DNA from: Candidatus Uhrbacteria bacterium
GTDB lineage: Bacteria; Patescibacteriota; Patescibacteriia; UBA9934; GWF2-40-263
DNA length: 64,000 nt
Direction of reading: 5' to 3'
NCBI GenBank assembly: GCA_016188475.1
Contig: JACPHT010000006.1
Coordinates: 68,313 to 132,312 of the forward strand
Shown here: one piece after another, positions 9,009-64,000 of the stretch
How the letters are laid out: each line of letters begins with the position of its first letter
Position numbering within the stretch: the first letter of the stretch is position 1
Program-made: the position numbers and the translations under genes
Notes under the pieces: model-generated
Told to the model about the DNA's origin: nothing
The model's input: only the letters and a program-made list of their open reading frames with translations
The model's database searches: none

Positions 9009-9050
9009 GACCTTTCAGTCCTTTCCGACCTTTCTGACTTTTCAGACCTT
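9009..9050. repeat. 9-bp-periodic GACCTTTC tandem array (copy 2 of 4), directly upstream of the pilM -35 region
   Basis: gacctttca|gtcctttcc|gacctttct|gacttttca|gaccttt, followed by TTGACA (9055-9060) and AGGAGG (9108-9113) before the ATG at 9121. Confidence 0.5.
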
Positions 9051-9120
9051 TGCATTGACACTGTCCACGAAGTATGTTCAAATAAATTCGCTGAAGGCAA
9101 AAGCCTTAGGAGGTACAGTA

Positions 9121-34239: not shown

Positions 34240-34267
34240 AAAAAAACTCGGTGTGTTAATCACCGAG
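34240..34267 (-). terminator. rho-independent terminator of cassette gene A1 (hairpin ctcggtg/caccgag + T7 on the minus strand)
   Basis: The A1 stop codon lies in the hairpin loop; a 7-nt A-run on plus becomes a T-run on minus. Confidence 0.5.
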
Positions 34268-35080: not shown

Positions 35081-35212
35081 GGTTCTCCTTATTAAGCCTA
35101 AAGGTACGACCATAGAAGTTAAACATTGTTCGTATTGATTGTCAAAGCTGATCGTGCTAGTTTAATTCATGGTGAAAACGAACGTTCCTTTCAATTTATC
35201 GGAGGTGTGCTA

Positions 35213-49173: not shown

Positions 49174-50088
49174 CTAAAGGCTGATATCAGTTACTTCATA
49201 TCCCCAAAATGCTTCTCCAAGGGCTTTTCGATTAAAAATGTTAGCTGTTCCTCGCGAAGCAGGTGAAAGCATTATCTCCAAAATAAGCGGGTTATTTTCG
49301 TTTGCCAAAATTGTATAACGAGCAAAAGCGTTTTGCGCCTGAATCGCGCGAACATCTGTCAAAACTCCGTTGACTTTTAACCTGAACGTTTTCCAATCAA
49401 TATCCGCCTCGATTTCTGAAATATTTTTTTGATCTTTGACTTGCGGTTTTCCTTTAAGTTGATCTATAAACGATTCAATCTGATCAGTGATTCCTGTTAC
49501 ATACGACACAGAATCATCAAACAATCCAAGATGAATCTCGGTGCGACGATTTTCAACAAGTTCTTTATATTGTTTGTTTGAAAGCCAGATGAGTGTCGAA
49601 TCGCTTTTTAGGTTTTCGTCTTTTTGCCAAAAAAAAGGTAAAAGTATTTTATTTCCATTTTCAAGCGAGTTTGTTTCAAGTATGCCTTTTTCCAAAATAT
49701 TTTCGTAAACTGGTTCTGGAGGATTTGGTAATTGTGTGCCGATCGCGGCTGAAGTGTAGTCGTCAAAATATTTTTTGCGCGTAGCAGTTGAAGCATCGGT
49801 TTCTTTTTTCAAAGATCGTTCCCAAGAAAAAACTCCTCTGACTTTCGGTTCCCAAAAATTTACCGAAATGATTCGATCGGCATCTGTTCCTTCAAATAAG
49901 GAAATCGCTTTTCCACCAACACCAAATATAGTCTCTCGCAAAATGATTTTCGAACCAGCTTCAATATTGAGAAGCGCTGCCGCTTGTTCCGGAGTTTTAT
50001 CTGAAACAATCTGTTGAGTGCAACCTGCCCCAACAAAAAGAATCGCACAACATGTCAGAGCGACAGAACGATTCAGTCTTAAGTTCAT
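49174..50088 (-). CDS. hypothetical lipoprotein
   Basis: Signal peptide with lipobox-like LFVGAGC; no recognisable domain. Confidence 0.45.
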   Translation of the reverse strand: MNLRLNRSVALTCCAILFVGAGCTQQIVSDKTPEQAAALLNIEAGSKIILRETIFGVGGKAISLFEGTDADRIISVNFWEPKVRGVFSWERSLKKETDASTATRKKYFDDYTSAAIGTQLPNPPEPVYENILEKGILETNSLENGNKILLPFFWQKDENLKSDSTLIWLSNKQYKELVENRRTEIHLGLFDDSVSYVTGITDQIESFIDQLKGKPQVKDQKNISEIEADIDWKTFRLKVNGVLTDVRAIQAQNAFARYTILANENNPLILEIMLSPASRGTANIFNRKALGEAFWGYEVTDISL

Positions 50089-50347: not shown

Positions 50348-50986
50348 TTGTGCTATTATCTTAACATGCAACAAACTCGTATTCAAATTCTAGTAGCCGC
50401 TCTATTTTTCACCGTAATTGCCGGCCTTCTTTTAATTCGACGTTTCGATACTCTTCCAGAAGAAATAGTAACTTTAGTTTCAACTACGGGATCAGATAGA
50501 ATTATTGGAGAAAAATTTCGTCGAGGCGAATTTATTGAAACAAAAGCAGGAGAGCATCTTGCTATCAGTATTGGAAACAACATTCAAATTGGAATTGATG
50601 AGCGTTCAAGACTTGAACTCTATCGGCTGTTCAAAGATGAACGTAAAATCCGCTTTCAAAAAGGAAGAATCATCATTATCAATAAAGAACGAATCCCTCT
50701 TTTTATAGAAACGAATAAAACAGAGAACGTTTTAGCAAGTGGTTCAGCAACGTTAATCAACTATGATTATCAACAATTAGTGACAATTGCGCCGCTCGAA
50801 GGATCGATTCAAACTCACATAAAAGGAATGAATGAGTACATGCTTATACCAATTCCAATCAGTGTAAATGAAAAAGATCCGGCTTCATATTCGAAAACAA
50901 AAACAGACCCATTGTCTGGAGCAAAAAAATTTTATGAGTGGTTTTACTCAATTATTCCTCCACCCAACATCACTTCCCCATCATAA
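50348..50986 (+). CDS. hypothetical membrane-anchored protein
   Basis: N-terminal TM helix (ILVAALFFTVIAGLLLI), soluble remainder with no recognised domain. True start may be the Met at 50366. Confidence 0.35.
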   Translation: MCYYLNMQQTRIQILVAALFFTVIAGLLLIRRFDTLPEEIVTLVSTTGSDRIIGEKFRRGEFIETKAGEHLAISIGNNIQIGIDERSRLELYRLFKDERKIRFQKGRIIIINKERIPLFIETNKTENVLASGSATLINYDYQQLVTIAPLEGSIQTHIKGMNEYMLIPIPISVNEKDPASYSKTKTDPLSGAKKFYEWFYSIIPPPNITSPS

Positions 50987-52086
50987 AAAACAATTGATTG
51001 TCCCGATGTTACTGCGCGCTGTGGTTTATCAAATTTAACCACAGCTTTTTTTTGTGGAAGAAAAGTTACTGCGCAAGATTGAAGCGGCTGACGATAACGA
51101 ATTCTCGCTTCGCATTTGATTTTTTTTGGAAGTGATTCTACTAGCAAATTAATTTGTTCAATTTCCAGTTCATCTTTATACAAAGACGGATGATAATTAC
51201 TTGTGACAACAAGCTCTTTCGTTTTCTCACGTTTTTCAACAACATAGTAAGGATTTCCACCACCGATATTCAAGCCATGGCGTTGACCGATTGTGAAAAA
51301 ATTTATTCCGGAATGTTCACCAACGATTTTTCCATCTGAAGTTACTATTTTTCCAGGATCCTCTTTAATTCTTGTTTTTAAGAATTCACGCATCTCAACT
51401 TCACCAACAAAACAAATTCCAACGCTGTCTTTTTTTTCAGCCACATCGAGCCCGAGCTTTCGAGCCTTTGCGCGAACTTCTGGTTTTGTCATTTCTCCAA
51501 CAGGAAAAATTATTCTCGGTAAAATTTTTTTATCAATCGCCCACAAAAAATACGTTTGGTCCTTGTTTGAATCTTTCCCAGCTAAAACACACTTTTTGTC
51601 ATTGCGAGGGAGCGCAGCGACCGAAGCAATCTCTTTTCCTAGATTTCTTCGCTTCGATCGCAATGACGGAAAGGTGGCTATACGAGCATAATGCCCCGTC
51701 GCAACATACCCACACCCAAGCCGATCAGCTTCTCTCACAAAACGATCAAACTTGATGAATTTGTTGCACATAACGTCCGGATTTGGCGTTCGTCCTGCAG
51801 ATGATTCGCGAAATAAATATTCGATAACATCTCGCCGATATTCTTTTTCAAAATCAAAAGTTAAAAATGGAATTCCGAGTTTGGCCGCAACACGCGCCGC
51901 ATCACGCCTTTCTATTTTCCAACCGCACTCTTTGAACTCTGGTCCTTCACATTCATTTTCAGACCAATTTTTCATGAAAGCTCCGATCACTTCATATCCT
52001 TGTTCCAACAACAAAGCCGCTGACACTGACGAGTCAACACCTCCTGACATTCCAACAAGAACTTTTTTCTTCCTTGTCATAATCAT
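50944..52086 (-). CDS. mnmA: tRNA-specific 2-thiouridylase MnmA
   Basis: PP-loop VLVGMSGGVDSSV and catalytic Cys regions; 380 aa. Confidence 0.9.
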   Translation of the reverse strand: MIMTRKKKVLVGMSGGVDSSVSAALLLEQGYEVIGAFMKNWSENECEGPEFKECGWKIERRDAARVAAKLGIPFLTFDFEKEYRRDVIEYLFRESSAGRTPNPDVMCNKFIKFDRFVREADRLGCGYVATGHYARIATFPSLRSKRRNLGKEIASVAALPRNDKKCVLAGKDSNKDQTYFLWAIDKKILPRIIFPVGEMTKPEVRAKARKLGLDVAEKKDSVGICFVGEVEMREFLKTRIKEDPGKIVTSDGKIVGEHSGINFFTIGQRHGLNIGGGNPYYVVEKREKTKELVVTSNYHPSLYKDELEIEQINLLVESLPKKIKCEARIRYRQPLQSCAVTFLPQKKAVVKFDKPQRAVTSGQSIVFYDGEVMLGGGIIE

Positions 52087-53456
52087 GAAAACGTTCTTTT
52101 CAAATTTTCAAATTTCTCTGAATCTTCACGCAGAACAAAAAAATCAGTGAAATTTAGCTTCTCATTATATTTTTGTAGCAAATCTGAATACTTAAAAATA
52201 GGAATATACTCCACGCCATTTACCAATCGTTTTGCAACATAGATCATCGTTGCACGCTCTGAATCGCCTTCCCCAAAATGAGAAAGTTCGTTCAAAACAG
52301 AATAAGTAAAATACCTGATCTTGTTTTGATAACAAAATTCTGACAAACCCGAGAGCAAAATTTGATCTTCTTCTTTGGATTTTTGTAAACGCAAAATTCG
52401 TTTCGCTGGAATTCGTTTTACAATATGCTCTGACCAATAATTTTTCGGATTTTTTGATGACTCAAAAATTTGCTCAATCACAGGACCGTCGCGCAACTGC
52501 GTATATAAGTATGGATCCGTGGGAATTTTCAATGAGATCTCTCTGGTTCGAATTGCTTCTTCCAAATAATGTGAAAATCCCGCCTTTGTTTTATGATAAT
52601 AAACTTGATCTATCATGTGATAACGAGCAAGAAGCATGTCTTCATACGCTCGCACTCCGTTTTCAGAAAGAGTCATGATCAGTTGATCATCGTGCTGTGC
52701 AACCCCAAACGATGAGATCAACCAATCAACATCATAATTCCCATACGCGACTCCACAAAAATAACTGTCACGCAAAAGATAATCCATTCGATCAGAATCT
52801 GCCTCGCCAGAAATAAGTCCTTTGAGAACTCGTCCGAGCCCAGGAATACGTACTGAAATTTTTTCCAAGTATTCAGACGGAAAAATATCTTTGTGCATGA
52901 TCGATGCGACATCTTGTGCGAACGATTTTTCCAAAACACCTTCTTGAACAAGAGTTTGAATCAATAGAATGCTGTAATCTTCGTGAGCGGATTTTCGATT
53001 AGGTTTTTGTTTCCACCAAGACCAGTCAAATGGAAAATCCTCGAGCGATGGAAAAATATATTCTGACGCGTGAGAAAACGGACCGTGCCCAATGTCGTGT
53101 AAAAGTCCTGCAACACGAACACGAGAACGAAGGGCTTGAATGTCAACATCAAAAATTGGAACGTTTCGTGAATCTGAAAACAAATGATCAAATAGTCGTC
53201 CGGCAACATGCATTGTCCCAATCGAGTGTAAAAATCTGTCGTGAGTTCCACCAGGATAAACATAAGAATGCAAAAAACCAAGCTGGCTTATGAAACGCAA
53301 ACGCTGAAAAAACGGATGATCAATGATCGTCCGTTCAAATTCGCTAAATGAAATGCGATGATGAATTGGATCGCGAAGTTCGTATGAGGACATAAAAAAG
53401 TAGCTGATACTTCTTTCTTCTTGATACTTGCTACCAATTATCATTCGAAATGTCAA
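52083..53456 (-). CDS. HD-domain phosphohydrolase, dGTPase-like (dNTP triphosphohydrolase family)
   Basis: HDRFLHSIGTMHVAG...LLHDIGHGPFSH...DSDRMDYLLRDSYFCGV HD motifs. 4-bp overlaps with the genes on both sides, so co-operonic. Confidence 0.75.
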   Translation of the reverse strand: MTFRMIIGSKYQEERSISYFFMSSYELRDPIHHRISFSEFERTIIDHPFFQRLRFISQLGFLHSYVYPGGTHDRFLHSIGTMHVAGRLFDHLFSDSRNVPIFDVDIQALRSRVRVAGLLHDIGHGPFSHASEYIFPSLEDFPFDWSWWKQKPNRKSAHEDYSILLIQTLVQEGVLEKSFAQDVASIMHKDIFPSEYLEKISVRIPGLGRVLKGLISGEADSDRMDYLLRDSYFCGVAYGNYDVDWLISSFGVAQHDDQLIMTLSENGVRAYEDMLLARYHMIDQVYYHKTKAGFSHYLEEAIRTREISLKIPTDPYLYTQLRDGPVIEQIFESSKNPKNYWSEHIVKRIPAKRILRLQKSKEEDQILLSGLSEFCYQNKIRYFTYSVLNELSHFGEGDSERATMIYVAKRLVNGVEYIPIFKYSDLLQKYNEKLNFTDFFVLREDSEKFENLKRTFS

Positions 53457-55423
53457 TCAAACTTGATGGTTTGCCCTGGTTTTAATGTGCCTGTATTTTT
53501 TTGCACGGTAGGTGTTGAAGAAAGTAAAGGGGTATTAGGAATCTGAACATTCGGTTTCTTATTTCGATTACGTTTTCGTTTTTTAGGTGAACTAACAGAA
53601 AAATTTACTGGCGACCCAATTGAGTTCGCCTTTGGAAGTGAAACGACTGGCGGTTTTTTAATTTCACTTGAAAGCCAATCATCTTTAAGCTGAGAAGCGG
53701 GCGTTGAAGCACTGCCTTCGACCACCGGACTTGGCGAGGTCACATCTGAAAGCTGGGCAAGCTCAGGCAATACATGTGTTTTCTCTTCAGCCCTTTCAGT
53801 CCTTTCAGTCTTCTCTGGCTTCACATTCAACCTGTTCAAACTAATTGGCTCAGAAGTTGTCTGACGCTCAACTATCGTTCCTTCAGACGGTCTTGGCGGT
53901 AATTCAGATTTTGAACGAACCTCTGTTCGTTTTGGTTTACCATGCTTACGTTCTTCTCTAACAATTTCAATACACTCCTCGCAATAAATCGGTCGAGAAC
54001 GATCAAGTTCAACCGCTAAAACAATTTGTTTATTACATCGTGTGCAATTATATTCAAAACGAGGTTTGCGCGATGATTTTACAAGTTTCTTTTTTTCTTC
54101 TGCTTCCTTAAGCAATGTGTCCATGTCAGCATCTTCCATCCCGCTCCATTTCAAAATCTTTTCTTCAATTTCTTTTCGTGGATTTGCGAAACGTTCACGC
54201 GAAACTTTAATGACCCTATCAGCAGAACCGGTTTTTTTTGAAATTGGTGGCAACGTAATCGCTGAAAACGGCTGGCTTGAAACTCCATCAATAAGCAACT
54301 TCAAATAAACGTTGTATTTGGGAAGATTAATAATATCTTCGGGCATAAAACGCGGAGCGAATTCCTTTTCCATATACAATCCGTCTGGCGAACCGACACG
54401 ATATGAAATTATTGTTCCAACGTTTCCGAAGACCGCTTCGCGAACTTCATCAGTGAGTTGCGCGATATATTGATGAGCCATTGTTAAACACAAACGATAT
54501 TTGCGAGCTTCGGAAAGAATTCCTGCAAACGACTCGACAGCAAAATTTTGAAACTCATCAACGTACAAATAAAAATCTTTTCGATCTTTTTCAGGAACGT
54601 CTACTCGTTCCATTGCGGCAAGCTGAAGTTTCGTGATGAGGAGCCCGCCAAGCAAACGAGAGTTGTCTTCACCAATGCGACCCTTTGAAAGATTTATGAT
54701 GAAAATCTTTTCAGAATCCATTATTTCGCGAATGTGAATCGTCGATTTTACTTGCGCGACAATGTTTCGAATAACTGACGCTGATAAAAATTGCCCGATC
54801 TTGTTTTGAATTGGTGCAACTGCCTCTTGCGCGTACTTATCGTTATACGATGCGAATTCTTTGAGCCAAAATTGCTTGACAACAGGATCTGTGACATTTC
54901 CGACAATTCGATTTCTAAATTCTTCCTCTGAAAGCATGCGATTTATTCCAAGTAATGTCTGTCCGGGATTATCAAGAAGAGCCAAGATCGTGTTATTCAA
55001 AATGTATTCCATACGCGAAGACCACATGTTTTCCCAAATCTTCTTGAAAACACCCATCATTCCGCTCGCAACCAAATGCTTATGGCGTTCGCTCACAGCT
55101 TCCAAAATATTAAAACCAATCGGGAAATCAACATCAGACGGATTGAAATAAATTACATCGTTGATTCGCCAGCTTGGAATGTAATCAATCAATTTTTCAG
55201 CCGTGTCTCCGTGTGGATCAACATAACAACAGCCGTGTCCTGCATAAATATCAGACAAAATAAAATTTTCGAGTAAAGTCGTTTTTCCCATGCCTGTTTT
55301 TCCAATCACATAAACATGGCGACGTCTATCGTCGGTTTTGATTCCAAACTTTGTCATCGAATTTCTGAAATTCGTTTTTGCAAAGTATGTGACTTCATTT
55401 TCGTGGTCGTGATTATGGGACAT
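53453..55423 (-). CDS. FtsK/HerA/TraG-superfamily P-loop ATPase with C-terminal CxxC-N17-CxxC zinc ribbon and Lys/Ser/Pro-rich tail (T4SS coupling-protein-like)
   Basis: Walker A VIGKTGMGKTT, Walker B FYLYVDEFQNF, zinc ribbon CTRCNKQ...CEECIE. No TM helix. The first ATG is at 55423; the ORF-track start at 55438 is a TTG. Confidence 0.55.
   Translation of the reverse strand: MSHNHDHENEVTYFAKTNFRNSMTKFGIKTDDRRRHVYVIGKTGMGKTTLLENFILSDIYAGHGCCYVDPHGDTAEKLIDYIPSWRINDVIYFNPSDVDFPIGFNILEAVSERHKHLVASGMMGVFKKIWENMWSSRMEYILNNTILALLDNPGQTLLGINRMLSEEEFRNRIVGNVTDPVVKQFWLKEFASYNDKYAQEAVAPIQNKIGQFLSASVIRNIVAQVKSTIHIREIMDSEKIFIINLSKGRIGEDNSRLLGGLLITKLQLAAMERVDVPEKDRKDFYLYVDEFQNFAVESFAGILSEARKYRLCLTMAHQYIAQLTDEVREAVFGNVGTIISYRVGSPDGLYMEKEFAPRFMPEDIINLPKYNVYLKLLIDGVSSQPFSAITLPPISKKTGSADRVIKVSRERFANPRKEIEEKILKWSGMEDADMDTLLKEAEEKKKLVKSSRKPRFEYNCTRCNKQIVLAVELDRSRPIYCEECIEIVREERKHGKPKRTEVRSKSELPPRPSEGTIVERQTTSEPISLNRLNVKPEKTERTERAEEKTHVLPELAQLSDVTSPSPVVEGSASTPASQLKDDWLSSEIKKPPVVSLPKANSIGSPVNFSVSSPKKRKRNRNKKPNVQIPNTPLLSSTPTVQKNTGTLKPGQTIKFD
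53784..53816. repeat. 9-bp-periodic GAAAGG(A/G)CT tandem array (copy 3 of 4), inside the ATPase CDS
   Basis: Plus strand ctcttcagccctttcagtcctttcagtcttctc; encodes ...ERTERTERAEE... on the minus strand. Confidence 0.45.
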
Positions 55424-55466
55424 AGGAAGAAAGGTCAAAAAGTACGGAAAGGTCTGAAAGGTCGAA
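55424..55466. repeat. 9-bp-periodic GAAAGGTC tandem array (copy 4 of 4), in the 5' leader of the ATPase gene
   Basis: gaaaggtca|aaaagtacg|gaaaggtct|gaaaggtcg. In mRNA sense it reads GACCTTTC x4 just upstream of the ATG, as at pilM. Confidence 0.5.
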
Positions 55467-55471
55467 AAACG

Positions 55472-57040
55472 TCAAACTGGTAAATTTGGTGGAACAAAAT
55501 CGTCACTTTGCGTTAATGGTTTTTCTTTTACCGGACTTGTTGGTGGTTTAACATCTGGGACTTCGGCGGAACCTATTGTGTCTTCGATCTTCGTTTCACG
55601 CTGGTTAAAGCCAGTGGCTTCAGCGTCTTCCTCCTTTCCTTCAGTTTTATTCATCCCTTCCATTTCTTCCTTCTCTTCCCTCCCCACTGCCAAGGTCTCC
55701 TCTTCAAACGTAATTGGAAGTCCAACAGGAGGTTCAGCTCGTCGAGCTTCGGCTTTCTTAACCAACGGCGCCTTAAATCCAAATGTCGGGAAGTGCCAAA
55801 GCGAAGCTATTTCCTCAACATTCAGAAATGATGGATCGGCTCCGATTCCCCAGCTTCGGTTTTGGTACGCCTTCATAAGCGTATGCTGTTTTTTTGTATA
55901 AACCCAACGCATCCAAAAATAATCATCTTTAGGAACTTGTGGAATAAAGAGCTCAAACTTATTCAACGCAAGATCAGCATATTGATTCAGGATGCCTTTT
56001 ACCATTCCAGTTCGTTCAACTTTCACAAACGCGTTCTTTTTCGCGACATAAAGAATTCGAATTTTTGTTCCCATTCCAACTTTTGAAAGTTTTCGGTATA
56101 AAGCATCTGCCTCTTTTGTTTCTTGTAAAGGCAGTAAAACATACGGCTCTTTTTTTGTTTCTTCTGTTGTGATGCCAAATAAGCCTCCAAGATCAGTTCC
56201 GGTTGCATTTGCGACCACTCCAATTGGCCACGAAACAACTGAATCAATAGCGGAAACTATCGCGCTCTTTTTTGCTTGCTCTGTTTTACCATAAAGTTTA
56301 TTGAGTCGTGCAATTCCTTCCTTAATCCAATCGTTCGTCGATGGCTGAACGATCATTTGAAACCAAAAATGTTCTCCTGGACGCATTTTTGCGAGTTGTT
56401 CAAGCGTGTGTCCAAGTGGATCCTTGATCTCTCCAGTTACCTTATCCTCAAATTCTATGTATGTACGAATTGGATACATTGAAGGTTTTGCAAGTTTGAA
56501 TTCCCCGCCCCACATTTCATATTCATTATCTGGATATACATTTGGAAATTTGGTTGAATAATCCTCGACTTCTGAAATTTCAGCATCAGGATAATGAGCA
56601 TAAATTCCGGCTTCGATCATGTCACGAAAACGAGTTTGCGTTCGAACAAGAAATTGGATATACCCCTCGGCTGAAATTATTTCAAAAGAAAAACTTGGAT
56701 GATATTTTCCAACTATCCACGTTTCCTTCCAAGTTAGAGTCGACTTGGATCCATACAAACTCGAAAACAAATTCTCAAGCGCTTTTGGCGTTTGTTCTGT
56801 CATTGAAGGAACGTCTATCGCTAACAAAACAAATTTTAAAGTCTTTGACCATTCGCCCTGACGATAGTTTTGCCACATCATCACAAAACCCCAACCAAGT
56901 GTGATCGCAATCGGAATCCATCCAAACCAAATAAAAAAATTAAAAAGAATGACGTCAATTGGACGTTCAAAAAACGGAACTGCTACAGCTGAAGTTTGAA
57001 CTGCTTGTTGAACGATTGGTATTGCAAAAAGCGGAAGCAT
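55472..57040 (-). CDS. hypothetical membrane-anchored protein (2 N-terminal TM helices, large soluble domain, acidic C-terminal tail); partner of the ATPase
   Basis: 522 aa. TM helices around residues 1-25 and 35-60, no recognised domain, C-terminal Glu/Lys/Pro-rich low-complexity region. 33-bp gap to the ATPase gene. Confidence 0.45.
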   Translation of the reverse strand: MLPLFAIPIVQQAVQTSAVAVPFFERPIDVILFNFFIWFGWIPIAITLGWGFVMMWQNYRQGEWSKTLKFVLLAIDVPSMTEQTPKALENLFSSLYGSKSTLTWKETWIVGKYHPSFSFEIISAEGYIQFLVRTQTRFRDMIEAGIYAHYPDAEISEVEDYSTKFPNVYPDNEYEMWGGEFKLAKPSMYPIRTYIEFEDKVTGEIKDPLGHTLEQLAKMRPGEHFWFQMIVQPSTNDWIKEGIARLNKLYGKTEQAKKSAIVSAIDSVVSWPIGVVANATGTDLGGLFGITTEETKKEPYVLLPLQETKEADALYRKLSKVGMGTKIRILYVAKKNAFVKVERTGMVKGILNQYADLALNKFELFIPQVPKDDYFWMRWVYTKKQHTLMKAYQNRSWGIGADPSFLNVEEIASLWHFPTFGFKAPLVKKAEARRAEPPVGLPITFEEETLAVGREEKEEMEGMNKTEGKEEDAEATGFNQRETKIEDTIGSAEVPDVKPPTSPVKEKPLTQSDDFVPPNLPV

Positions 57041-57063: not shown

Positions 57064-57096
57064 CAAAAAAACGGACTGCTGTCGTCCGTTTGTTTT
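57064..57096 (-). terminator. rho-independent terminator downstream of secF
   Basis: Minus-strand hairpin aaacggac-gacagca-gtccgttt followed by TTTTTTT. Confidence 0.6.
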
Positions 57097-57128
57097 TACC
57101 TCCAGCTTCTTCATCCTCTCCAGCTTCT

Positions 57129-58022
57129 TCAGCTTCTCTTCTTCATCTTCTCCCAAACCACGAGCAGTGGACTTGCTAAAAAAATTGAAGAGTATGTTCC
57201 AACTGTGATTCCAATAATAAGGGCAAGCGCAAAAGGTTGCGTGCTATCGCCGCCAAAAATGAAAATTGCAATCAAAGCAAGGATTGTTGTCAAACTTGTA
57301 TTGAGTGATCTAAGAAGAGTTTGCTCAATGCTCATTTCTACTGTTTCCGATAATGTATGAGCTGTTCTACGAAGCAAGTTCTCGCGTGTGCGGTCAAAAA
57401 CAACGATTGTATCGTTGATTGAATAGCCAAGAACTGTCAGTGCGGCCGCGATAATCGCGGCACCGACTTCCCATCCAAACCAAACACCAAATAACGCGAA
57501 TGCCCCGATCATGATAACAACATCATGAAATGCGGTTAGGACTGTAATGGTTGCATATTTCCACGAAGCAACAGGTTCCGAAACCTTACGAAACGCCCAT
57601 GCAACATAAAGTCCAATCAAAATAAGCGTCAAAATAACACCAATAGTCGCTGTGCGTCTCAGTTCGCTCCCGATCACTGGTCCAACTGATTCAAAACTCA
57701 ACTCTGTTAAATTACCATGGGCTGTTTTTATTGCACCTAAAACCGATTGATGCTCATCTTCCGAAAGCATCTGCGTGCGAATCAAAAAACCATTTTCACC
57801 TGACGTTTGAATCGTGGCGTCTTTATATCCAGCATCATCAAACGTCTGTTTCATTGCGCCAACACTTACAGGTTGATCGAATTTAATTTCAATGAGACTT
57901 CCACCTGTAAAATCAACTCCATATTTCAATCCCGGATAAACAATAAGAACAAGGCTCGCAACAACGAGAAATCCTGAAAGAAAAAACCAGTAATTTCTAT
58001 TTTTGATAACTTGTAATTTCAT
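57129..58022 (-). CDS. secF: protein-export membrane protein SecF
   Basis: 297 aa, 6 TM helices, N-terminal ...GVDFTGGSLIEIKF periplasmic domain signature. Confidence 0.85.
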   Translation of the reverse strand: MKLQVIKNRNYWFFLSGFLVVASLVLIVYPGLKYGVDFTGGSLIEIKFDQPVSVGAMKQTFDDAGYKDATIQTSGENGFLIRTQMLSEDEHQSVLGAIKTAHGNLTELSFESVGPVIGSELRRTATIGVILTLILIGLYVAWAFRKVSEPVASWKYATITVLTAFHDVVIMIGAFALFGVWFGWEVGAAIIAAALTVLGYSINDTIVVFDRTRENLLRRTAHTLSETVEMSIEQTLLRSLNTSLTTILALIAIFIFGGDSTQPFALALIIGITVGTYSSIFLASPLLVVWEKMKKRS

Positions 58023-58023
58023 A

Positions 58024-58162
58024 CCCGGTAGTACAACAATGATTTATATTATCGATTAATTATTTCTTTTGCTAACATTGGTTCGACTACTCATGTTGAA
58101 TGTCATACAGGCTGTGTTAAAGCACGGAAGAACAGGCGACAGATCATTGTTGTCCTACCGGG
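58024..58162 (-). promoter_or_regulatory. ~139-bp structured element E (copy 1) with 20-bp terminal inverted repeats, abutting the secF start codon
   Basis: cccggtagtacaacaatgat ... atcattgttgtcctaccggg (1 mismatch). The 3' arm (mRNA sense) ends 1 nt before the secF ATG. The secD TAG stop lies in the other arm. Confidence 0.5.
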
Positions 58163-60164
58163 CATTATTCGATTTTTTTACGCAAAAGAGCGCAAACTTC
58201 CGCGCCCATTTCCATGCGAGAACATTTTTGAGATAAACACGACTTACCATTATCGCACTAAACATGCTCAATATAACTCCGATCGCAAGTGTTAGCGCAA
58301 ATCCGCGAATAAAACTTGAACTAAACCAGTACAAAACAGCGGCCGCTATCAATGTTGTTAGGTTTCCATCACGAATTGAAGTCCACGCGCGCGTGAACGC
58401 CTCATCAGTCGCTGAACCGAAATCTCGTCCAGAATGAAGCTCTTCCTTCAAGCGCTCAAAAATAAGAACGTTAGCGTCAACTGCCATACCAATCGACAAA
58501 ACAAATCCCGCTATTCCAGCAAGCGTTATTGTGACATCAAAAAAACGATATGCCGCAAGGTTTATAACTGCGAAAAACAAAAGCGCAAGAGTCGCAATAA
58601 GTCCTGGCAATCTATAAAAAACTAGCATGAAAAGCCCAACAAGAATTAACCCAATAAGCCCAGCGTTGATACTTTTTGCAAGTGATACAGCTCCGAGAGT
58701 TGGACCAACGGTTTGTTGTGAAACCAAATTTATCGGAACTGGCAAAGCTCCAGCATTCAAATCCTGCGCAAGCAAACGCGCTTCATCAACAGTGAAATCA
58801 CTAGTTATTACAGCTTGACCGCCATAGATTGCCTGTTGAACTCTCGGAGCTGAAATAAGTCCTCCATCAAGAAAAATCGCTATCGGTTCTCCAACATGAG
58901 CCTCTGTTAGTTTTCCAAATAAATCAGAACCTTCATCGTTGAAGTCAAGCAAAACATTCGGCGCTCCTGATCTTTGGTCAAATTGAACTGACGCTCGCTT
59001 TAGGTGTTTTCCTGAAAGCGCTGTATTTTTCCAAGGTGAACTTGGAACAATGTCAGCTTCGGTTGTGAACGGCATCAAAATGCGCTTTACAGTTACAGCC
59101 GAGACAGGACGCTCATCGCGTTTATAAATTATGTGAAAACCAAACTCTGATTCAACAACATCTGAAATTTCTCCAACTGGAGTTGAAAGAGCCGCAAGCG
59201 CAAAAGCGTCAACGTACTTATCTGGTGTTGCCCACCCAAGATCTTCCACTCCTTCGAGTGTTGAGAAGCTTTCCGGAGTTGCAGATTTTTTCAAATTTTG
59301 AATTTTGATTGAAGCTTCAATTTCAGGGATTGGTTTTTCACATCGCAGTTTACCTTCGTAGCAAACAAGAACATGCGAAAGCAACATTTCTTTTGTATCA
59401 CCAACTTCTTCAACACGGAAAATACTAATACCTTCGTTAGTTTCCAAAACCGAATTTGAAATTTGACCGGCCTTCAACTTTTTTTGTTTGGCTTGAATAA
59501 AATAATCTGAAAATTGAGAATTTGCTGTAATATTTTTGATTGTTGATTTTGCGAGTGGAACTTTGCTATTTTCGGAAATAAGTTTGTCAAAATCTTCGCC
59601 AGCGAGCGCTCGGTCCAAAACAGCATTCGCAGATGCTCGATCATTTTTTTGCATTTCTTTAAGTTGCGTTTTCTCGTCATCGGTCAAAGCGCGTCCAGGC
59701 TCTTTAACAGGTTCCTTAAATTCAAGAACTGGTGTTTTGCCGATTTGCTCAATAGCTTGTGTAACATCTTTGATTCCTGCGAGTTCGATTACCAAACGAT
59801 ATGTGCCGCCAGTTGAGATTGTTTGAACAATAGGCTCTGAAACTCCAAACGAATTAACACGACGTTCGATCACGTTTTTAACTCCATCGAGAGCGTTAAC
59901 TCGCTCTGTAGCAGGTATTTCCGTCATGTCAGCCTCGTAAACAAGATGCGTTCCACCCTGAAGATCGAGTCCAAGACGAAAAGGAGTTTCGGCAATTTTC
60001 ATTCCATCAAGACTAACAGCGCGCACAGCTTGATTCCACAACTGTGGAAAATCATAGCCAGCGAACACAAGTGTCAAGACAATCATGAGTACGCCAATGA
60101 TTCGTCTTGCCCAAGGTTTTTTAGTTTTATTAACTGACTTTCTTTTAATTTTCCATGTTTGCAT
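58155..60164 (-). CDS. secD: protein-export membrane protein SecD (long form)
   Basis: 669 aa; N-terminal TM helix, large periplasmic region, C-terminal 5-TM SecD/SecF core (..LIGLILVGLFMLVFYR...). Confidence 0.85.
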   Translation of the reverse strand: MQTWKIKRKSVNKTKKPWARRIIGVLMIVLTLVFAGYDFPQLWNQAVRAVSLDGMKIAETPFRLGLDLQGGTHLVYEADMTEIPATERVNALDGVKNVIERRVNSFGVSEPIVQTISTGGTYRLVIELAGIKDVTQAIEQIGKTPVLEFKEPVKEPGRALTDDEKTQLKEMQKNDRASANAVLDRALAGEDFDKLISENSKVPLAKSTIKNITANSQFSDYFIQAKQKKLKAGQISNSVLETNEGISIFRVEEVGDTKEMLLSHVLVCYEGKLRCEKPIPEIEASIKIQNLKKSATPESFSTLEGVEDLGWATPDKYVDAFALAALSTPVGEISDVVESEFGFHIIYKRDERPVSAVTVKRILMPFTTEADIVPSSPWKNTALSGKHLKRASVQFDQRSGAPNVLLDFNDEGSDLFGKLTEAHVGEPIAIFLDGGLISAPRVQQAIYGGQAVITSDFTVDEARLLAQDLNAGALPVPINLVSQQTVGPTLGAVSLAKSINAGLIGLILVGLFMLVFYRLPGLIATLALLFFAVINLAAYRFFDVTITLAGIAGFVLSIGMAVDANVLIFERLKEELHSGRDFGSATDEAFTRAWTSIRDGNLTTLIAAAVLYWFSSSFIRGFALTLAIGVILSMFSAIMVSRVYLKNVLAWKWARKFALFCVKKSNNAR

Positions 60165-61631: not shown

Positions 61632-64000
61632 TCACACACCATGACAACGCTTGAATTTCTTCCCGCTTCCGCAATAGCATGGGTCATTTCGTCCGAGTTT
61701 TTTATCCTCTCCCACTCGCCCCATTTCTCCCTTTTCTCCCTCTCCTCCAGCCATAACAATTCCCTTCTTTTCAAAAACTGAACGATCAAGCTCTGCTTGA
61801 ACTTTCATATCAACCGCGTGTTTGGCGTATTTGAAAAACGAATATGTAATTTCAGAATTGATCGAGGACAGTAATCGCTGAAATAAATCAAATCCTTCTT
61901 TTTTATATTCAACGAGCGGATCGCGCTGACCATATCCGCGCAAACCAATTCCAGTGCGAAGCGCTCCCATTCCAGCCAAATGATCAATCCAAAGAATATC
62001 TATCGCCCGCAAAATCACTCCGCGTTCGATGTGATAAATTTCTTTTTTGTCTTCAAACAAATCATAAAGTTGATTATATGAACCGCGAACAATTTCCATA
62101 ATTGCCTCAATCAATTTCGTTTGTTTTTCCGCCAGATCTTTTTTATCTTCAAGCGAACCATATTCTAATTTTAGAATTTCATCTTTTTGAATTTCCGAAA
62201 GCGGAATAATAGTTTGAAGTGTTTCAACAATCTCTGACTTTTTTTGTTTTCTATCTTTGCTCTCTTGGTCCTCTGGGCCATTCCCCAAATGGAACAAAAC
62301 GACCTGTTCAACTTCACCCTCGATAATATCGAGCACACGTTCTTTCAATTTCTCCGGCGAGTTCGCAAACGTTTCCAAAATATCTCGACGTCGCGCGTAA
62401 ATGACTTCTCGATGTTTGTTCAAAACATCATCGTACTCAAGCAAATGTTTTCGAGTGTCAAAATGATGACCCTCAACACGTTCCTGCGCTTTTTCCATTG
62501 CGCGCGAAACCATTTTGTTTTCAATCGGCATGTCGTCAGGAATTCCAAGACGATCCATCATTGACTTTGTTCGATCTGATCCGAAAATTCGCATAAGATC
62601 ATCGTCCATTGAAAGATAAAACTGCGATGAACCAGGGTCTCCCTGACGCCCTGAACGGCCGCGCAACTGATTGTCAATGCGACGAGCGTCATGACGCTCT
62701 GTACCTATAACATGCAACCCACCGAGTTCTTTTACGCGCTGTTCTTCTAAAGCGTCCGGCGGATTTCCACCTAAACGAATGTCAACTCCGCGTCCTGCCA
62801 TGTTTGTTGCGATAGTAACAGCGCCGACTCGTCCGGCTTGAGCAATGATTTCAGCTTCGCGCGCGTGGTTTTTCGCGTTCAAAACCTCGTGCGGAACTCC
62901 AGCTTTTGTTAATAGTTCAGAAAGCACTTCGTTTTTTTCAACTGAAACTGTTCCAACTAACTGCGGTTGACCTTTTTCATGAAGCGCTTTGATTTCTTGA
63001 ACAAGCGCTGTAAATTTTCCTTTTTCAGATTTATAAATTCGATCTGGCAAATCATTTCTAGCTGCGGGTTTGTTTGTTGGAATTTCAGTCACTTCCAAAT
63101 CATAAATTTTCGCAAATTCTTCTGCTTCTGTTGCGGCAGTTCCTGTCATACCTGAAAGTTTTTCGTACATGCGAAAAAGATTTTGAAAAGTAATTGTCGC
63201 GAGTGTTTGGCTTTCTTTTTGAATCGCAACTCCTTCTTTTGCTTCGATTGCTTGATGAATTCCTTCTGAAAAACGACGGCCTTGCATAAGACGACCAGTA
63301 AATTCATCAACAATAATTACTTCGCCGTCTTTCACGATGTAATGAATGTCTTTTTTGTAATTCGCTCGCGCTCGAAGCGCAGTGTCAGCAAAACGAGCGT
63401 GCATTCCAGCTCCAACAGCATAAAGATTTTCAACTCCAAGAGCGCGTTCAATTTTTTCAATTCCGGCGTCTGAAAGTGTTGCTGTTCTCATTTTTTCGTC
63501 AACGTTAAAATCTTCATTCTCTGTTAAACCTGCTACAATTTGCGCAAAACGAGAATACAAAACATCTGATTCCTCTGACGGAGCTGAAATAATAAGTGGA
63601 GTTCGAGCTTCATCAATCAAAATAGAATCGATTTCATCAACGATCGCGTAATGCAAATCTCTCATCACGCACTGCTCAACAGTCGGCGACATGTTGTCGC
63701 GCAAATAATCAAAACCAAATTGATTGTTTGTACCATACGTGATGTCAGCCGTGTATGCTTCTTTGCGCGGACACGGTCGCAAATAATCTTCGCGAACGTG
63801 AAATGATTCGGTTTGAATTTCAACCTCTGTCTCCACTTGTCTTCCATTGTCTTCCATTTGCTTATATTCCGGATCATAAATCAATCCACCATCTTGCTGA
63901 ATACATCCAACGCTCAAACCTAAAAAGTGAAACACTTGTCCCATCCAAACAGTGTCACGGCGAGCGAGATAATCGTTGACCGTAACAAGATGACAACCTT
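61632..64000 (-). CDS. secA: preprotein translocase ATPase SecA (N-terminus extends beyond the window end)
   Basis: DEAD-like motifs (MAGRGVDI, TNMAGRGVDI), C-terminal zinc finger KLGRNDPCYCGSGKKFKRCHG. The minus-strand frame stays open to 64000 (..HLVTVNDYLARRD..). Confidence 0.9.
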   Translation of the reverse strand, partial: GCHLVTVNDYLARRDTVWMGQVFHFLGLSVGCIQQDGGLIYDPEYKQMEDNGRQVETEVEIQTESFHVREDYLRPCPRKEAYTADITYGTNNQFGFDYLRDNMSPTVEQCVMRDLHYAIVDEIDSILIDEARTPLIISAPSEESDVLYSRFAQIVAGLTENEDFNVDEKMRTATLSDAGIEKIERALGVENLYAVGAGMHARFADTALRARANYKKDIHYIVKDGEVIIVDEFTGRLMQGRRFSEGIHQAIEAKEGVAIQKESQTLATITFQNLFRMYEKLSGMTGTAATEAEEFAKIYDLEVTEIPTNKPAARNDLPDRIYKSEKGKFTALVQEIKALHEKGQPQLVGTVSVEKNEVLSELLTKAGVPHEVLNAKNHAREAEIIAQAGRVGAVTIATNMAGRGVDIRLGGNPPDALEEQRVKELGGLHVIGTERHDARRIDNQLRGRSGRQGDPGSSQFYLSMDDDLMRIFGSDRTKSMMDRLGIPDDMPIENKMVSRAMEKAQERVEGHHFDTRKHLLEYDDVLNKHREVIYARRRDILETFANSPEKLKERVLDIIEGEVEQVVLFHLGNGPEDQESKDRKQKKSEIVETLQTIIPLSEIQKDEILKLEYGSLEDKKDLAEKQTKLIEAIMEIVRGSYNQLYDLFEDKKEIYHIERGVILRAIDILWIDHLAGMGALRTGIGLRGYGQRDPLVEYKKEGFDLFQRLLSSINSEITYSFFKYAKHAVDMKVQAELDRSVFEKKGIVMAGGEGEKGEMGRVGEDKKLGRNDPCYCGSGKKFKRCHGV

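What the first reader, a model, noticed from the sequence alone, without database searches (positions are those of the whole stretch)
52083..57040. Operon: membrane anchor protein + FtsK/TraG/HerA-type ATPase with zinc ribbon + HD dGTPase-like hydrolase
Three genes on the minus strand are tightly linked, with 33-bp, 4-bp and 4-bp junctions, then mnmA. Gene 1 (55472..57040) is a 2-TM protein with a large soluble domain and an acidic low-complexity tail. Gene 2 is a 655-aa soluble P-loop ATPase (Walker A GKTGMGKTT, Walker B DEFQNF) ending in a CxxC-N17-CxxC zinc ribbon and a Lys/Pro/Ser-rich tail. Gene 3 is an HD-domain dNTP-triphosphohydrolase-like protein. The ATPase resembles type IV coupling proteins and FtsK/HerA DNA translocases but lacks its own TM segment, so the membrane partner may substitute. 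dGTPase-like HD enzymes can act as nucleotide-depletion defence effectors, so coupling to a DNA-translocase-like ATPase is unusual. The ATPase 5' leader and an internal site both carry the 9-bp GAAAGGTC arrays. This could be a DNA uptake/transfer module or a novel membrane-associated defence system.
Basis: partly seen in the sequence, partly recalled or inferred. Interest (0 to 1): 0.62.

Follow-up and report, generated by a model that had tools for sequence, protein, structure and literature searches.

The report
Split type IV coupling ATPase in Uhrbacteria
Two adjacent genes in this ultra-small (Patescibacteria) bacterium together make a membrane-anchored motor ATPase of the kind that feeds DNA or proteins into conjugation-type secretion machines, here split into an anchor protein and a soluble motor, while the neighbouring HD nucleotide hydrolase is only a local neighbour and not part of a defence system.

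Summary

The ATPase directly follows DUF8128 in 74/74 Uhrbacteria-like genomes and 37/49 more distant metagenome loci, usually 0-10 nt apart. In Bacillus phage G gp156 and a Niallia conjugative-type plasmid protein, both parts are fused in one chain (hhalign probability 97-98%), beside VirB4-like, VirB6/TcpE-like and relaxase-like genes.

The HD gene is a SAMHD1/EF1143-type dNTPase homologue. It lies downstream in only 31/59 close and 4/28 distant loci, so the three-gene defence reading is not supported.

The substrate is unknown. Weak clues point to DNA transfer or uptake. Orphan T4CPs in Patescibacteria were already reported in 2025, but I found no report of the DUF8128 partner.

The parts
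57069..57091 (-). Terminator-like hairpin plus T-run between secF and gene 1, overlapped by a promoter-like site (57085-57057). It probably marks the 5' boundary of the transcription unit.
   Evidence: No terminator-like site lies between gene 1, the ATPase, HD and mnmA. The next one is at 50918-50904.
55472..57040 (-). Gene 1: DUF8128 (PF26449) membrane anchor/scaffold protein, 522 aa
   Evidence: precomputed PF26449. The family has 1826 50%-identity cluster representatives.
56876..56956 (-). Single clear transmembrane helix (residues 29-55). Positive residues follow it, so the large domain is predicted to be cytoplasmic.
   Evidence: Hydropathy, AF2 long helix 28-67, coordinates.
55736..56839 (-). 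Cytoplasmic alpha/beta domain (residues 68-435) with a VirB4-N-terminal-domain-like fold. It is homologous to the N-terminal domain of fused 'long' T4CPs.
55493..55705 (-). Acidic disordered linker/tail (residues 446-516)
   Evidence: pLDDT <50, composition. Length varies among homologues.
55475..55492 (-). Conserved extreme C-terminal peptide PPNLPV, a candidate docking motif for the ATPase. It echoes the internal EPPVGLP that leads into the ATPase domain in fused homologues.
   Evidence: P517, L520 and P521 are invariant or nearly so. The motif is present in 104 of 112 loci with an adjacent ATPase, against 7 of 13 without one (Fisher p 7e-4, not corrected for phylogeny).
55429..55467 (-). 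9-bp tandem array (GACCTTTCN, about 4.5 copies) that fills the gene1-ATPase spacer. It is strain-specific.
   Evidence: Not conserved in relatives. A similar array lies upstream of pilM.
53453..55423 (-). Gene 2: soluble T4CP-like FtsK/HerA-superfamily ATPase, 656 aa
55280..55303 (-). Walker A GKTGMGKT
   Evidence: Invariant in A4.
54542..54565 (-). Walker B YVDEFQNF
   Evidence: Invariant in A4.
53972..54046 (-). CxxC-x17-CxxC zinc ribbon
   Evidence: Cysteines are invariant in A4. Homologues carry PF23477/PF09723.
53456..53971 (-). Disordered K/P/S/T-rich tail (includes KKRKRNRNKK), ending in the conserved C-terminal motif GTLKPGQTIKFD (53456-53491)
52083..53444 (-). HD gene: SAMHD1/EF1143-type dNTP triphosphohydrolase homologue. 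It is a syntenic neighbour and probably co-transcribed, but it is not a conserved partner of the module. The start codon is uncertain (53444 or 53393).
   Evidence: 2hek E 5.5e-37, SAMHD1 about 1e-22. Motifs HDIGH and DSDRMDY. Distribution.

Best explanation
Genes 1 and 2 together encode one machine: a split version of the 'long' type IV coupling protein (T4CP) found in monoderm conjugation-type systems.

Proposed assembly:
- The DUF8128 protein sits in the cytoplasmic membrane through one N-terminal TM helix. It presents a cytoplasmic domain with a VirB4-N-terminal-domain-like fold.
- The soluble ATPase (FtsK/HerA superfamily, VirD4/VirB4 branch) is made from the next, translationally coupled gene.
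- The ATPase is recruited to DUF8128, probably through that domain and the conserved C-terminal PPNLPV peptide at the end of a flexible acidic tether.
- It is expected to form a ring ATPase at the membrane, like other T4CPs.
- Its zinc ribbon, basic disordered tail and conserved C-terminal peptide would bind the cargo or an adaptor.

What is shown:
- family assignments;
- the fold similarity;
- near-universal adjacency;
- the existence of fused homologues inside T4SS/relaxase gene clusters.

What is inferred:
- physical docking of the two proteins;
- hexamer formation;
- topology.

Most likely role (about 40%): an ATP-driven substrate receptor/translocase for nucleic acid. It would serve the T4SS-type and/or competence-linked DNA transfer apparatus that Patescibacteria encode elsewhere in the genome.

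The module is a conserved chromosomal gene pair of ABY1-class Patescibacteria. It is neither a mobile element nor a defence island. The HD dNTPase-like gene and mnmA are downstream housekeeping neighbours in Uhrbacteria only.
For: 1. ATPase assignment. It is T4CP-like by curated Pfam cut-offs and by fold: DptH C-domain 16.0, DotL 15.1, VirB4 C-terminal domain 14.9, TrwB 14.3.

3. Rosetta-stone fusions.
- Gene 1 and gene 2 hit the same PHROG family, phrog_5156, at profile positions 40-290 and 405-807.
- Bacillus phage G gp156 (825 aa) is matched by both proteins. hhalign of the DUF8128 profile gives probability 97.2, E 4e-11.
- The Niallia plasmid 867-aa protein gives probability 97.7, E 2.4e-12.
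- The Embleya 812-aa T4CP has a TM, then a collinear weak match (E 5.6e-4), then the ATPase (30% identity, E 3e-55).

4. The fused homologues lie in T4SS/conjugation-type clusters.
- Phage G: TrbL_4 and a VirB4-like gene.
- CP-51: Replic_Relax next to gp91.
- Embleya: PrgI, a VirB4-like gene, replication-relaxation and NlpC/P60.
- Niallia: replication-relaxation, TcpE and a VirB4-like gene.

5. Synteny.
- The ATPase lies within 1 kb downstream of DUF8128 in 74/74 genome loci and 37/49 metagenome loci.
- The median spacer is 9 nt, and 14 loci have an ATGA overlap.

6. Housekeeping character.
- secD-secF lies upstream in 65/66 close loci.
- Median ATPase identity is 68%, against 54-60% for SecD, SecF and MnmA.
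- There is no integrase, relaxase or VirB4 in the 64-kb window.

7. Literature.
- 5,713 VirD4-type T4CP homologues occur in 2,918 Patescibacteria genomes, and only 148 lie near virB4 (PMC12102498).
- Southlakia SEML1_0293 is 921 aa with the T4CP domain at 402-719. It is flagged 'core' and 'Patescibacteria-enriched' (PMC10633639 supplements). That length fits an unsplit form.
Against: - No direct evidence that the two proteins bind each other. A fused-chain structure prediction could not be run.
- The ATPase model is only moderately confident (pLDDT 66.5), and the DUF8128 model has pLDDT 72.
- The similarity to the VirB4 N-terminal domain is at fold level only. The DUF8128 profile finds no sequence similarity to VirB4-like neighbours or to PDB chains.
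- About a quarter of more distant DUF8128 genes (Magasanikbacteria and Falkowbacteria types) have no adjacent ATPase, so the partnership is not obligate in cis.
- No T4SS, relaxase or comEC gene is in this window, so the channel served is unknown.
- The Southlakia T4CP homologue, the likely orthologue, is non-essential, whereas T4SS genes are essential. This argues against a simple role as 'the coupling protein of the essential T4SS'.
- Orthology to SEML1_0293, and the DUF8128-like nature of its N-terminus, were not verified because I had no access to its sequence.
Confidence: 0.7

Rival explanations
1. The split T4CP has been exapted as the cytoplasmic motor of natural competence. It would pull DNA in through ComEC after capture by type IV pili (a ComFA/ComB4-like role), with the products feeding nucleotide salvage.
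For: - In Magasanikbacteria, DUF8128 is followed directly by ComEC (Competence domain plus MBL), PilM, a response regulator, a pilin, the prepilin peptidase and LigA.
- ABY1 T4SS loci are reported to co-localise with comF, recG and radA (PMC12102498).
- In this genome the same 9-bp GACCTTTCN array lies upstream of pilM (9009-9051) and of the ATPase (55429-55467).
- Both the Southlakia T4CP homologue and comEC are non-essential.
- A dNTPase-like HD gene is the neighbour in Uhrbacteria.
- The ATPase has a zinc ribbon and a basic tail.
Against: - In the very loci where DUF8128 abuts comEC, the ATPase is not adjacent and the PPNLP motif is lost.
- No comEC or pilus gene lies next to the pair in 74 Uhrbacteria-like loci.
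- The 9-bp array is not conserved in relatives and also occurs inside coding regions.
- All lines of support are circumstantial.
Confidence: 0.2
2. One reading: membrane protein, ATPase and HD hydrolase form a three-gene membrane-associated anti-phage defence system, with nucleotide depletion by the HD enzyme.
For: - The genes are tightly packed and co-directional, with no terminator between them.
- PADLOC gives a mad8-like hit for the ATPase (E 1.9e-17) and a weak dGTPase hit for the HD protein (E 1.7e-5).
Against: - HD is downstream in only 31/59 close and 4/28 distant loci, while the pair persists.
- HD is absent from all fused-homologue contexts.
- NCBIfam anti-phage dGTPase scores 15 bits against a cut-off of 383.
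- No other MADS or Dnd genes are present.
- The locus is fixed between secDF and mnmA, with very strong sequence conservation, which is unlike defence islands.
- No composition anomaly.
Confidence: 0.04
3. The pair works with the Sec machinery, or as an FtsK-like division/segregation motor. That is, it would be a protein-export or chromosome-segregation ATPase rather than a T4SS/competence component.
For: - secA..secD-secF-DUF8128 synteny is conserved in Uhrbacteria, in Magasanikbacteria and in many metagenome loci.
- The second-best structural match of DUF8128 is EccE of the type VII protein secretion system, whose motor EccC is FtsK-like.
- The ATPase is very strongly conserved.
Against: - A terminator-like hairpin separates secF from gene 1.
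- Falkowbacteria-type loci replace secDF with a sigma-factor gene.
- Pfam FtsK_SpoIIIE scores 16 bits, below the cut-off of 24.
- Homologues with informative context sit in conjugation-type clusters next to relaxase-like genes, not next to Sec or division genes.
Confidence: 0.08
4. The pair is a remnant of an integrated conjugative element or prophage, carried by chance in this genome.
For: The closest non-CPR homologues are on plasmids and phages.
Against: - The position and orientation are the same in 74/74 related species, with housekeeping flanks.
- The ATPase core is 60-88% identical across them.
- No integrase, relaxase or other T4SS gene is in the window.
- GC is uniform.
Confidence: 0.02

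Closest known systems
'Long' type IV coupling proteins of monoderm conjugation-type loci: Niallia plasmid NZ_CP137637 867-aa protein, Embleya plasmid NZ_CP108778 812-aa T4CP, Bacillus phage G gp156, phage CP-51 gp91 (phrog_5156)
   Same: The two modules appear in the same order. A DUF8128-like N-terminal domain (hhalign probability 97-98% for gp156 and the Niallia protein) is followed by the same ATPase (22-30% identity, E 1e-15 to 3e-55). The Embleya protein also has a single N-terminal TM helix.
   Different: - In those proteins the modules form one polypeptide. They sit beside VirB4-like, VirB3/TcpE/PrgI-like, VirB6-like and replication-relaxation genes on mobile elements.
- Here the protein is split into two genes. 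The anchor has gained an acidic tether and a PPNLPV end, and the ATPase has gained a zinc ribbon and a long basic tail.
- Here the pair is chromosomal, next to secDF, with no T4SS or relaxase gene nearby.
Canonical VirD4/TrwB/TraD/DotL coupling proteins
   Same: - Nucleotide-binding domain with Walker A/B and a helical insertion.
- Pfam TrwB_AAD_bind, TraG-D_C and T4SS-DNA_transf above cut-offs.
   Different: - Canonical T4CPs carry a short 2-TM N-terminus in cis and no VirB4-NTD-like domain.
- Sequence similarity is weak (TrwB E 5e-4).
- They are normally encoded with a relaxase or a T4SS.
VirB4 (TrwK) with VirB3
   Same: - Overall logic: a membrane-associated N-terminal alpha/beta domain plus a C-terminal FtsK/HerA-type ATPase.
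   Different: - No sequence-level similarity to VirB4 N-terminal domains.
- No CagE_TrbE_VirB or AAA_10 hit.
- Two polypeptides instead of one.
Orphan VirD4-type T4CP homologues of Patescibacteria (Quinonero-Coronel et al. 2025, PMC12102498; Southlakia SEML1_0293, PMC10633639)
   Same: - Same PGAP name and same Pfam set (PF10412, PF12696, PF01935).
- Encoded far from virB4.
- Flagged as a core, Patescibacteria-enriched family.
- A sigma-factor gene lies upstream, as in Falkowbacteria DUF8128 loci.
   Different: - SEML1_0293 is a single 921-aa protein with the ATPase at 402-719, presumably unsplit (not verified).
- The papers read here do not mention a DUF8128 partner, a split architecture or a VirB4-NTD-like domain, and no paper in the library contains 'DUF8128'.
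SAMHD1 / EF1143 / Aquifex 2HEK HD-domain dNTP triphosphohydrolases (for the HD gene only)
   Same: N-terminal DPIHxxI...QRLR motif, HDIGH and DxDRxDY metal-binding motifs. E 5.5e-37 to 2hek and about 1e-22 to SAMHD1 catalytic cores.
   Different: - No SAM domain.
- Allosteric-site residues and activity were not assessed.
- Not a member of the curated dGTPase equivalogs.

Membership tests
Type IV coupling protein (VirD4/TraD/TrwB) | FtsK/HerA-superfamily nucleotide-binding domain with Walker A and B | tested here: met
   GKTGMGKT (41-48) and YVDEFQNF (287-294), invariant among homologues.
Type IV coupling protein (VirD4/TraD/TrwB) | Matches curated T4CP profiles above their gathering scores | tested here: met
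   PF10412 43.9 bits against 20.5, PF12696 24.2 against 22, PF02534 22.5 against 20.1. All NCBIfam T4CP equivalogs score far below their cut-offs.
Type IV coupling protein (VirD4/TraD/TrwB) | All-alpha domain inserted in the nucleotide-binding domain | tested here: inconclusive
Type IV coupling protein (VirD4/TraD/TrwB) | N-terminal transmembrane anchor in the same polypeptide | tested here: not met
   The ATPase has no hydrophobic segment. The anchor is supplied in trans by DUF8128 and is fused in homologues.
Type IV coupling protein (VirD4/TraD/TrwB) | Encoded with a relaxase and/or T4SS channel genes | tested here: not met
   No VirB4, VirB6 or relaxase among 44 ORFs of the 64-kb window scanned with Pfam. 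This feature is met for the fused homologues. The rest of the genome was not available.
Type IV coupling protein (VirD4/TraD/TrwB) | Recruits substrates and delivers them to a T4SS channel | not testable with these tools
   Needs genetics or biochemistry.
VirB4 | N-terminal membrane-associated domain with the VirB4 NTD fold | tested here: met
VirB4 | Sequence membership (CagE_TrbE_VirB / AAA_10 profiles), single NTD+CTD polypeptide | tested here: not met
   No such Pfam hit for either protein. hhalign to VirB4-like neighbours of the fused homologues gives probability <1%. The module is two genes.
Pfam DUF8128 (PF26449) | Match to the family profile | tested here: met
   Precomputed PF26449 is assigned to the identical protein and to nearly all homologues. 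The local Pfam copy appears to lack this model, since it gave 0 hits for gene 1.
SAMHD1/EF1143-type HD dNTP triphosphohydrolase (HD gene) | HD-domain metal-binding motifs and similarity to characterised members | tested here: met
   HD E 1e-8 and HD_assoc_2. 2hek E 5.5e-37, SAMHD1 about 1e-22. Motifs HDIGH and DSDRMDY. Enzyme activity is not testable here.
Anti-phage dGTPase / nucleotide-depletion defence | Membership of the curated anti-phage dGTPase family and a defence-island-like, variable context | tested here: not met
   NF003701 scores 15 bits against a cut-off of 383. PADLOC dGTPase reaches only E 1.7e-5. The housekeeping context is fixed.
MADS (methylation-associated defence system) | Presence of the multi-gene mad set including a methyltransferase | tested here: not met
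   Only a mad8-like hit for the ATPase. No other mad gene is near it.
FtsK/SpoIIIE and HerA | Profile match above the curated cut-off | tested here: not met
Competence (ComEC/T4P) operon | Adjacent comEC, comF or pilus genes | tested here: not met
   None lies next to the pair in this window or in 74 related loci. pilM lies 45 kb away. The feature is met only for DUF8128 alone in Magasanikbacteria.

The most novel reading that the evidence does not exclude
ABY1 Patescibacteria may have taken the coupling ATPase of a monoderm conjugation machine and split it into a membrane tether (DUF8128) and a free motor with a zinc ribbon. They may then have re-purposed it as a housekeeping DNA-import motor, working with ComEC/type IV pili or the T4SS to acquire host DNA or nucleotides.

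A corollary concerns evolution. The VirB4-NTD-like fold of DUF8128 would show that the common ancestor of VirB4 and T4CPs already carried this N-terminal domain, and that canonical VirD4 proteins lost it.
Probability: 0.15. Interest if true: 0.75.

Novelty: new variant of a known kind. Interest (0 to 1): 0.5.

Why it matters
Patescibacteria make up a large share of bacterial diversity. They depend on hosts for nucleotides and other building blocks, and how they move macromolecules across their envelope is largely unknown.

A 2025 survey found thousands of 'orphan' T4CP homologues in these genomes and could only say they might be exapted (PMC12102498). This analysis adds three things:
- It gives the orphan ATPase a partner, the uncharacterised DUF8128 family.
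- It explains how a TM-less T4CP can reach the membrane.
- It links the pair by gene fusion to coupling proteins of Gram-positive conjugative elements and Bacillus phages.

It also suggests that VirB4 and this class of T4CP share an N-terminal domain architecture. The resulting hypotheses can be tested in the genetically tractable Saccharibacterium Southlakia: the interaction, the localisation and the transformation phenotype.

Finally, it removes a false lead. The locus is not a new HD-based defence system.

Tried and rejected
1. Complex prediction with a fused chain. Gene 1 and gene 2 are in the same frame, separated by one TGA. With a hand-fused sequence, MAFFT misaligned the ATPase homologues, so I abandoned this.

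2. The afdb50 fold library was unavailable.

3. A DUF8128 profile search against PDB sequences gave only spurious coiled-coil hits.

4. I looked for fused DUF8128-ATPase ORFs within Patescibacteria loci and found none in 135 loci.

5. DUF8128 searches in plasmids by tblastn and in IMG/VR by pattern scan gave no match.

6. Literature searches.
- 'DUF8128' appears in 0 papers.
- Searches for VirB4-NTD/TrsD/EccE, for MADS/mad8 and for phage G T4SS genes gave nothing directly relevant.

7. I considered the leader 9-bp array as a conserved regulatory element of the pair. I rejected that, because it is absent from all but one relative.

8. I considered a defence system (PADLOC) and rejected it on the phyletic pattern and context.

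9. I could not verify that Southlakia SEML1_0293 has a DUF8128-like N-terminus, because I had no access to its sequence.

Full report
OBSERVATION

The window is a chromosome segment of a Candidatus Uhrbacteria bacterium (Patescibacteria/CPR). Gene 1 is 100% identical to NCBI protein HYV69_01905.

On the minus strand the gene order is as follows:
- secA (61632-63944);
- an Nramp gene on the opposite strand;
- secD (58155-60164) and secF (57129-58022);
- gene 1 (55472-57040);
- the ATPase (53453-55423);
- the HD gene (52083 to 53393, 53444 or 53456, depending on the start codon);
- mnmA (50944-52086).

Four details need correction.
- Only one segment of gene 1 is hydrophobic enough for a TM helix (residues about 29-55).
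- Homologue N-termini support the ATG at 55423 for the ATPase. The spacer is then 48 nt, not 33.
- The 4-bp ATPase/HD junction depends on an unlikely TTG start. ATGs at 53444 (gene callers) or 53393 (alignment to solved homologues) are more plausible.
- The 'internal' 9-bp site is degenerate and in the opposite orientation.

A terminator-like hairpin lies between secF and gene 1. There is none between gene 1 and the end of mnmA. Co-transcription of the four genes is therefore plausible.

WHAT THE PROTEINS ARE

Gene 1 had no hit in the local Pfam or NCBIfam copies. It carries the precomputed Pfam family PF26449 = DUF8128, and no paper in the library mentions that family. An AF2 model (pLDDT 72, with a well-predicted core at residues 20-430) shows:
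- a long TM helix;
- an alpha/beta domain;
- a disordered tail.

The HD protein is a SAMHD1/EF1143-type dNTPase homologue. It scores E 5.5e-37 to 2hek and about 1e-22 to SAMHD1 cores, and it has the HDIGH and DSDRMDY motifs.

CONSERVATION

In 80 species-representative genomes (mostly Uhrbacteria, DUF8128 identity 35-88%):
- the ATPase lies directly downstream in 74/74 loci that have enough DNA;
- secF lies directly upstream in 65/66;
- HD is downstream in 31/59 and mnmA in 43/59.

In 80 more divergent metagenome loci (33-87% identity), the figures are ATPase 37/49, secF 25/42 and HD 4/28.

The spacer between the DUF8128 stop and the ATPase start has a median of 9 nt. In 14 loci the codons overlap as ATGA.

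The ATPase core is unusually conserved. Its median tblastn identity is 68%, against 49% for DUF8128 and 54-60% for SecD, SecF and MnmA (these are HSP-limited values).

Named members of the DUF8128 family come from groups I recall (from memory of GTDB) as belonging to the ABY1 class: Uhrbacteria, Komeilibacteria, Jacksonbacteria, Magasanikbacteria and Falkowbacteria. The family has 1826 50%-identity cluster representatives.

Loci without an adjacent ATPase fall into two types:
- the Falkowbacteria type: sigma70/HARE-HTH gene - DUF8128 - GT4 - DUF4012;
- the Magasanikbacteria type: secA - secD - secF - DUF8128 - comEC - MBL - pilM - response regulator - pilin - prepilin peptidase - ligA.

DUF8128 proteins end in a conserved P-x-[NDE]-L-P peptide after a variable acidic tail. 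The motif is present in 104/112 loci with an adjacent ATPase and in 7/13 without one (odds ratio 11, p 7e-4, not corrected for phylogeny). The Magasanikbacteria type has lost it.

THE FUSION EVIDENCE

Against PHROGs, gene 1 matches positions 40-290 and the ATPase matches positions 405-807 of the same 824-position family, phrog_5156 (E 1.9e-11 and 9.7e-59).

- Phage G gp156. tblastn finds both proteins inside this single gene of Bacillus phage G (825 aa). hhalign of the DUF8128 profile to gp156 residues 15-323 gives probability 97.2%, E 4e-11. The family's signature motifs line up: FSFEI.S, YP..EI.EV.D and LN..E....H.P.
- Niallia plasmid protein. This 867-aa protein gives probability 97.7%, E 2.4e-12 for residues 55-316. 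Its C-terminal part is 27.6% identical to the ATPase.
- Embleya plasmid T4CP. This 812-aa protein has one TM helix and a collinear but weak DUF8128-like match (E 5.6e-4), followed by the ATPase (30% identity, E 3e-55).
- CP-51 gp91. This 911-aa protein is similar, with a weak N-terminal match.

All these fused proteins sit in conjugation-type clusters.
- Phage G: gp153 TrbL_4 (VirB6-like) and gp155 P-loop_TraG/AAA_10 (VirB4-like).
- CP-51: gp90 Replic_Relax.
- Embleya: PrgI, a VirB4-like ATPase, replication-relaxation and NlpC/P60.
- Niallia: replication-relaxation, TcpE and a VirB4-like ATPase.

In these systems the fused protein occupies the coupling-protein position, next to the relaxase-like gene. 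In the fused proteins the DUF8128-like domain ends in a PP..(L/I)P stretch that leads straight into the ATPase. In the split form the break falls right after the equivalent EPPVGLP. The anchor has also acquired a tether that ends in a second copy-like PPNLPV.

MECHANISM

The most economical reading is a split long T4CP. DUF8128 anchors the motor to the membrane (N-terminus out, large domain in, by the positive-inside rule). It also supplies the VirB4-NTD-like scaffold. The ATPase binds it and presumably forms a ring, as other T4CPs do. Its zinc ribbon, basic tail and conserved C-terminal GTLxxGQxIKFD peptide are candidate cargo- or adaptor-binding elements. Docking, oligomeric state and substrate are all inferences.

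Which channel does it serve? PMC12102498 reports 5,713 VirD4-type T4CP homologues in 2,918 Patescibacteria genomes. Only 148 lie near virB4, and relaxases are rare (109). The authors note possible exaptation.

In Southlakia, SEML1_0293 is 921 aa with the T4CP domain at 402-719. It lies downstream of an essential sigma-factor gene, as in Falkowbacteria-type DUF8128 loci. It is flagged 'core' and 'Patescibacteria-enriched', and it is called non-essential. Normalised reads nevertheless fall from 5817 to 2940 to 1372 over passages. A second T4CP-like gene, SEML1_0142, is essential. The size and layout of SEML1_0293 fit an unsplit orthologue, but I could not check its sequence.

Clues that point to DNA and competence:
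- the Magasanikbacteria comEC/pilus neighbourhood;
- the reported co-localisation of ABY1 T4SS loci with comF, recG and radA;
- the same 9-bp GACCTTTCN array upstream of pilM and of the ATPase in this genome.

These clues are weak. The array is not conserved in relatives, and the comEC-linked DUF8128 genes lack the adjacent ATPase.

HD GENE AND THE DEFENCE IDEA

The HD gene is a plausible housekeeping dNTPase. It travels with mnmA in Uhrbacteria and is dispensable for the pair elsewhere. PADLOC's mad8-like and weak dGTPase hits and the DptH structural match reflect shared ATPase and HD folds, not system membership. No other system genes are present. The curated anti-phage dGTPase model scores 15 bits against a cut-off of 383. 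The locus also has none of the variability expected of a defence island.

NOVELTY AND LIMITS

What is new: I found no report of the DUF8128 partner, the split architecture, the fusion link to monoderm long T4CPs and Bacillus phage proteins, or the VirB4-NTD-like fold. No paper in the library contains 'DUF8128'.

What was already known: orphan T4CP homologues in Patescibacteria have been published, and the ATPase is annotated as T4SS-related in public records. I therefore rate this as a new variant of a known kind, with moderate interest.

Limits:
- model confidence is moderate;
- there is no interaction test;
- there is no whole-genome view of this organism, so the presence of virB4 or comEC is unknown;
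- sampling is restricted to the top-ranked homologues that the tools return.

Noticed in passing
window 9009-9051, 55429-55467, 329-363, 53786-53810: Tandem arrays of a 9-bp unit (GACCTTTCN, 2.8-4.8 copies). One lies just upstream of a promoter-like site, RBS and ATG (9122) of pilM. One fills the DUF8128-ATPase spacer. Two lie inside coding sequence (an AddB-like ORF and the ATPase tail), where they encode 3-residue repeats. GAAAGGTC occurs 12 times against 2.1 expected. This could be a regulator-binding repeat shared by pilM and the ATPase, or a slippage-prone minisatellite. It is not conserved at this locus in relatives, apart from a partial copy in L005.
   Followed up: partly
window 55424-55474: In this strain, gene 1 and the ATPase are in the same reading frame, separated by a single TGA and 15 sense codons made of the 9-bp repeats. 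Read-through would recreate a fused protein like the plasmid and phage homologues. In most relatives the spacer is not a multiple of three or the codons overlap, so this is probably coincidental.
   Followed up: partly
window 58155-60164 (secD): The SecD product carries PpiC-type rotamase (PF00639/PF13616) hits between its first domain and the P1 head. The same hits appear in the Magasanikbacteria SecD (L165). A peptidyl-prolyl isomerase domain inserted in SecD is unusual.
   Followed up: no
L165 (Magasanikbacteria contig Ga0172380_10000008), 2836-19809; also L117, L130: The order is secA - secD - secF - DUF8128 - comEC (Competence domain) - MBL - pilM - response regulator - pilin - prepilin peptidase - ligA. 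Here DUF8128 lacks both the adjacent ATPase and the C-terminal PPNLP motif.
   Followed up: partly
L166 (Bacillus phage G, JN638751 87772-93336) and L167 (phage CP-51 gp91-gp90): The jumbo phage G encodes a T4SS-like trio: gp153 TrbL/VirB6-like, gp155 VirB4-like and gp156, a fused DUF8128-like domain plus T4CP-like ATPase. SPO1-like phages (CP-51, JL, Shanette, SP-10) carry the fused ATPase, and in CP-51 it lies next to a replication-relaxation protein. All members of phrog_5156 are listed as 'unknown function'.
   Followed up: partly
window 53456-53491 and alignment A4: The ATPase ends in a conserved peptide (S)GTLxxGQxIKFD after a long, variable, disordered K/P/S-rich tail. This looks like a second short linear motif, possibly for partner binding.
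   Followed up: no
L095 8680-11873; L149 13075-14376: Some loci carry a second, divergent (40-42% identity) paralogue of the ATPase, in tandem or nearby. This fits the roughly two T4CP homologues per Patescibacteria genome reported in PMC12102498.
   Followed up: no
window 57100-57152: An 18-bp / 9-bp tandem repeat (CTCCAGCTTCTTCAGCCT) spans the 3' end of secF and runs into the terminator-like hairpin at 57069-57091.
   Followed up: no
window 23052-24482, 34256-35113, 35126-36505, 49174-50088, 50348-50986, 3794-4297: ORFs of 167-476 aa with no Pfam match at E<=1e-4 or 1e-5. Typical uncharacterised CPR proteins. Not examined further.
   Followed up: no
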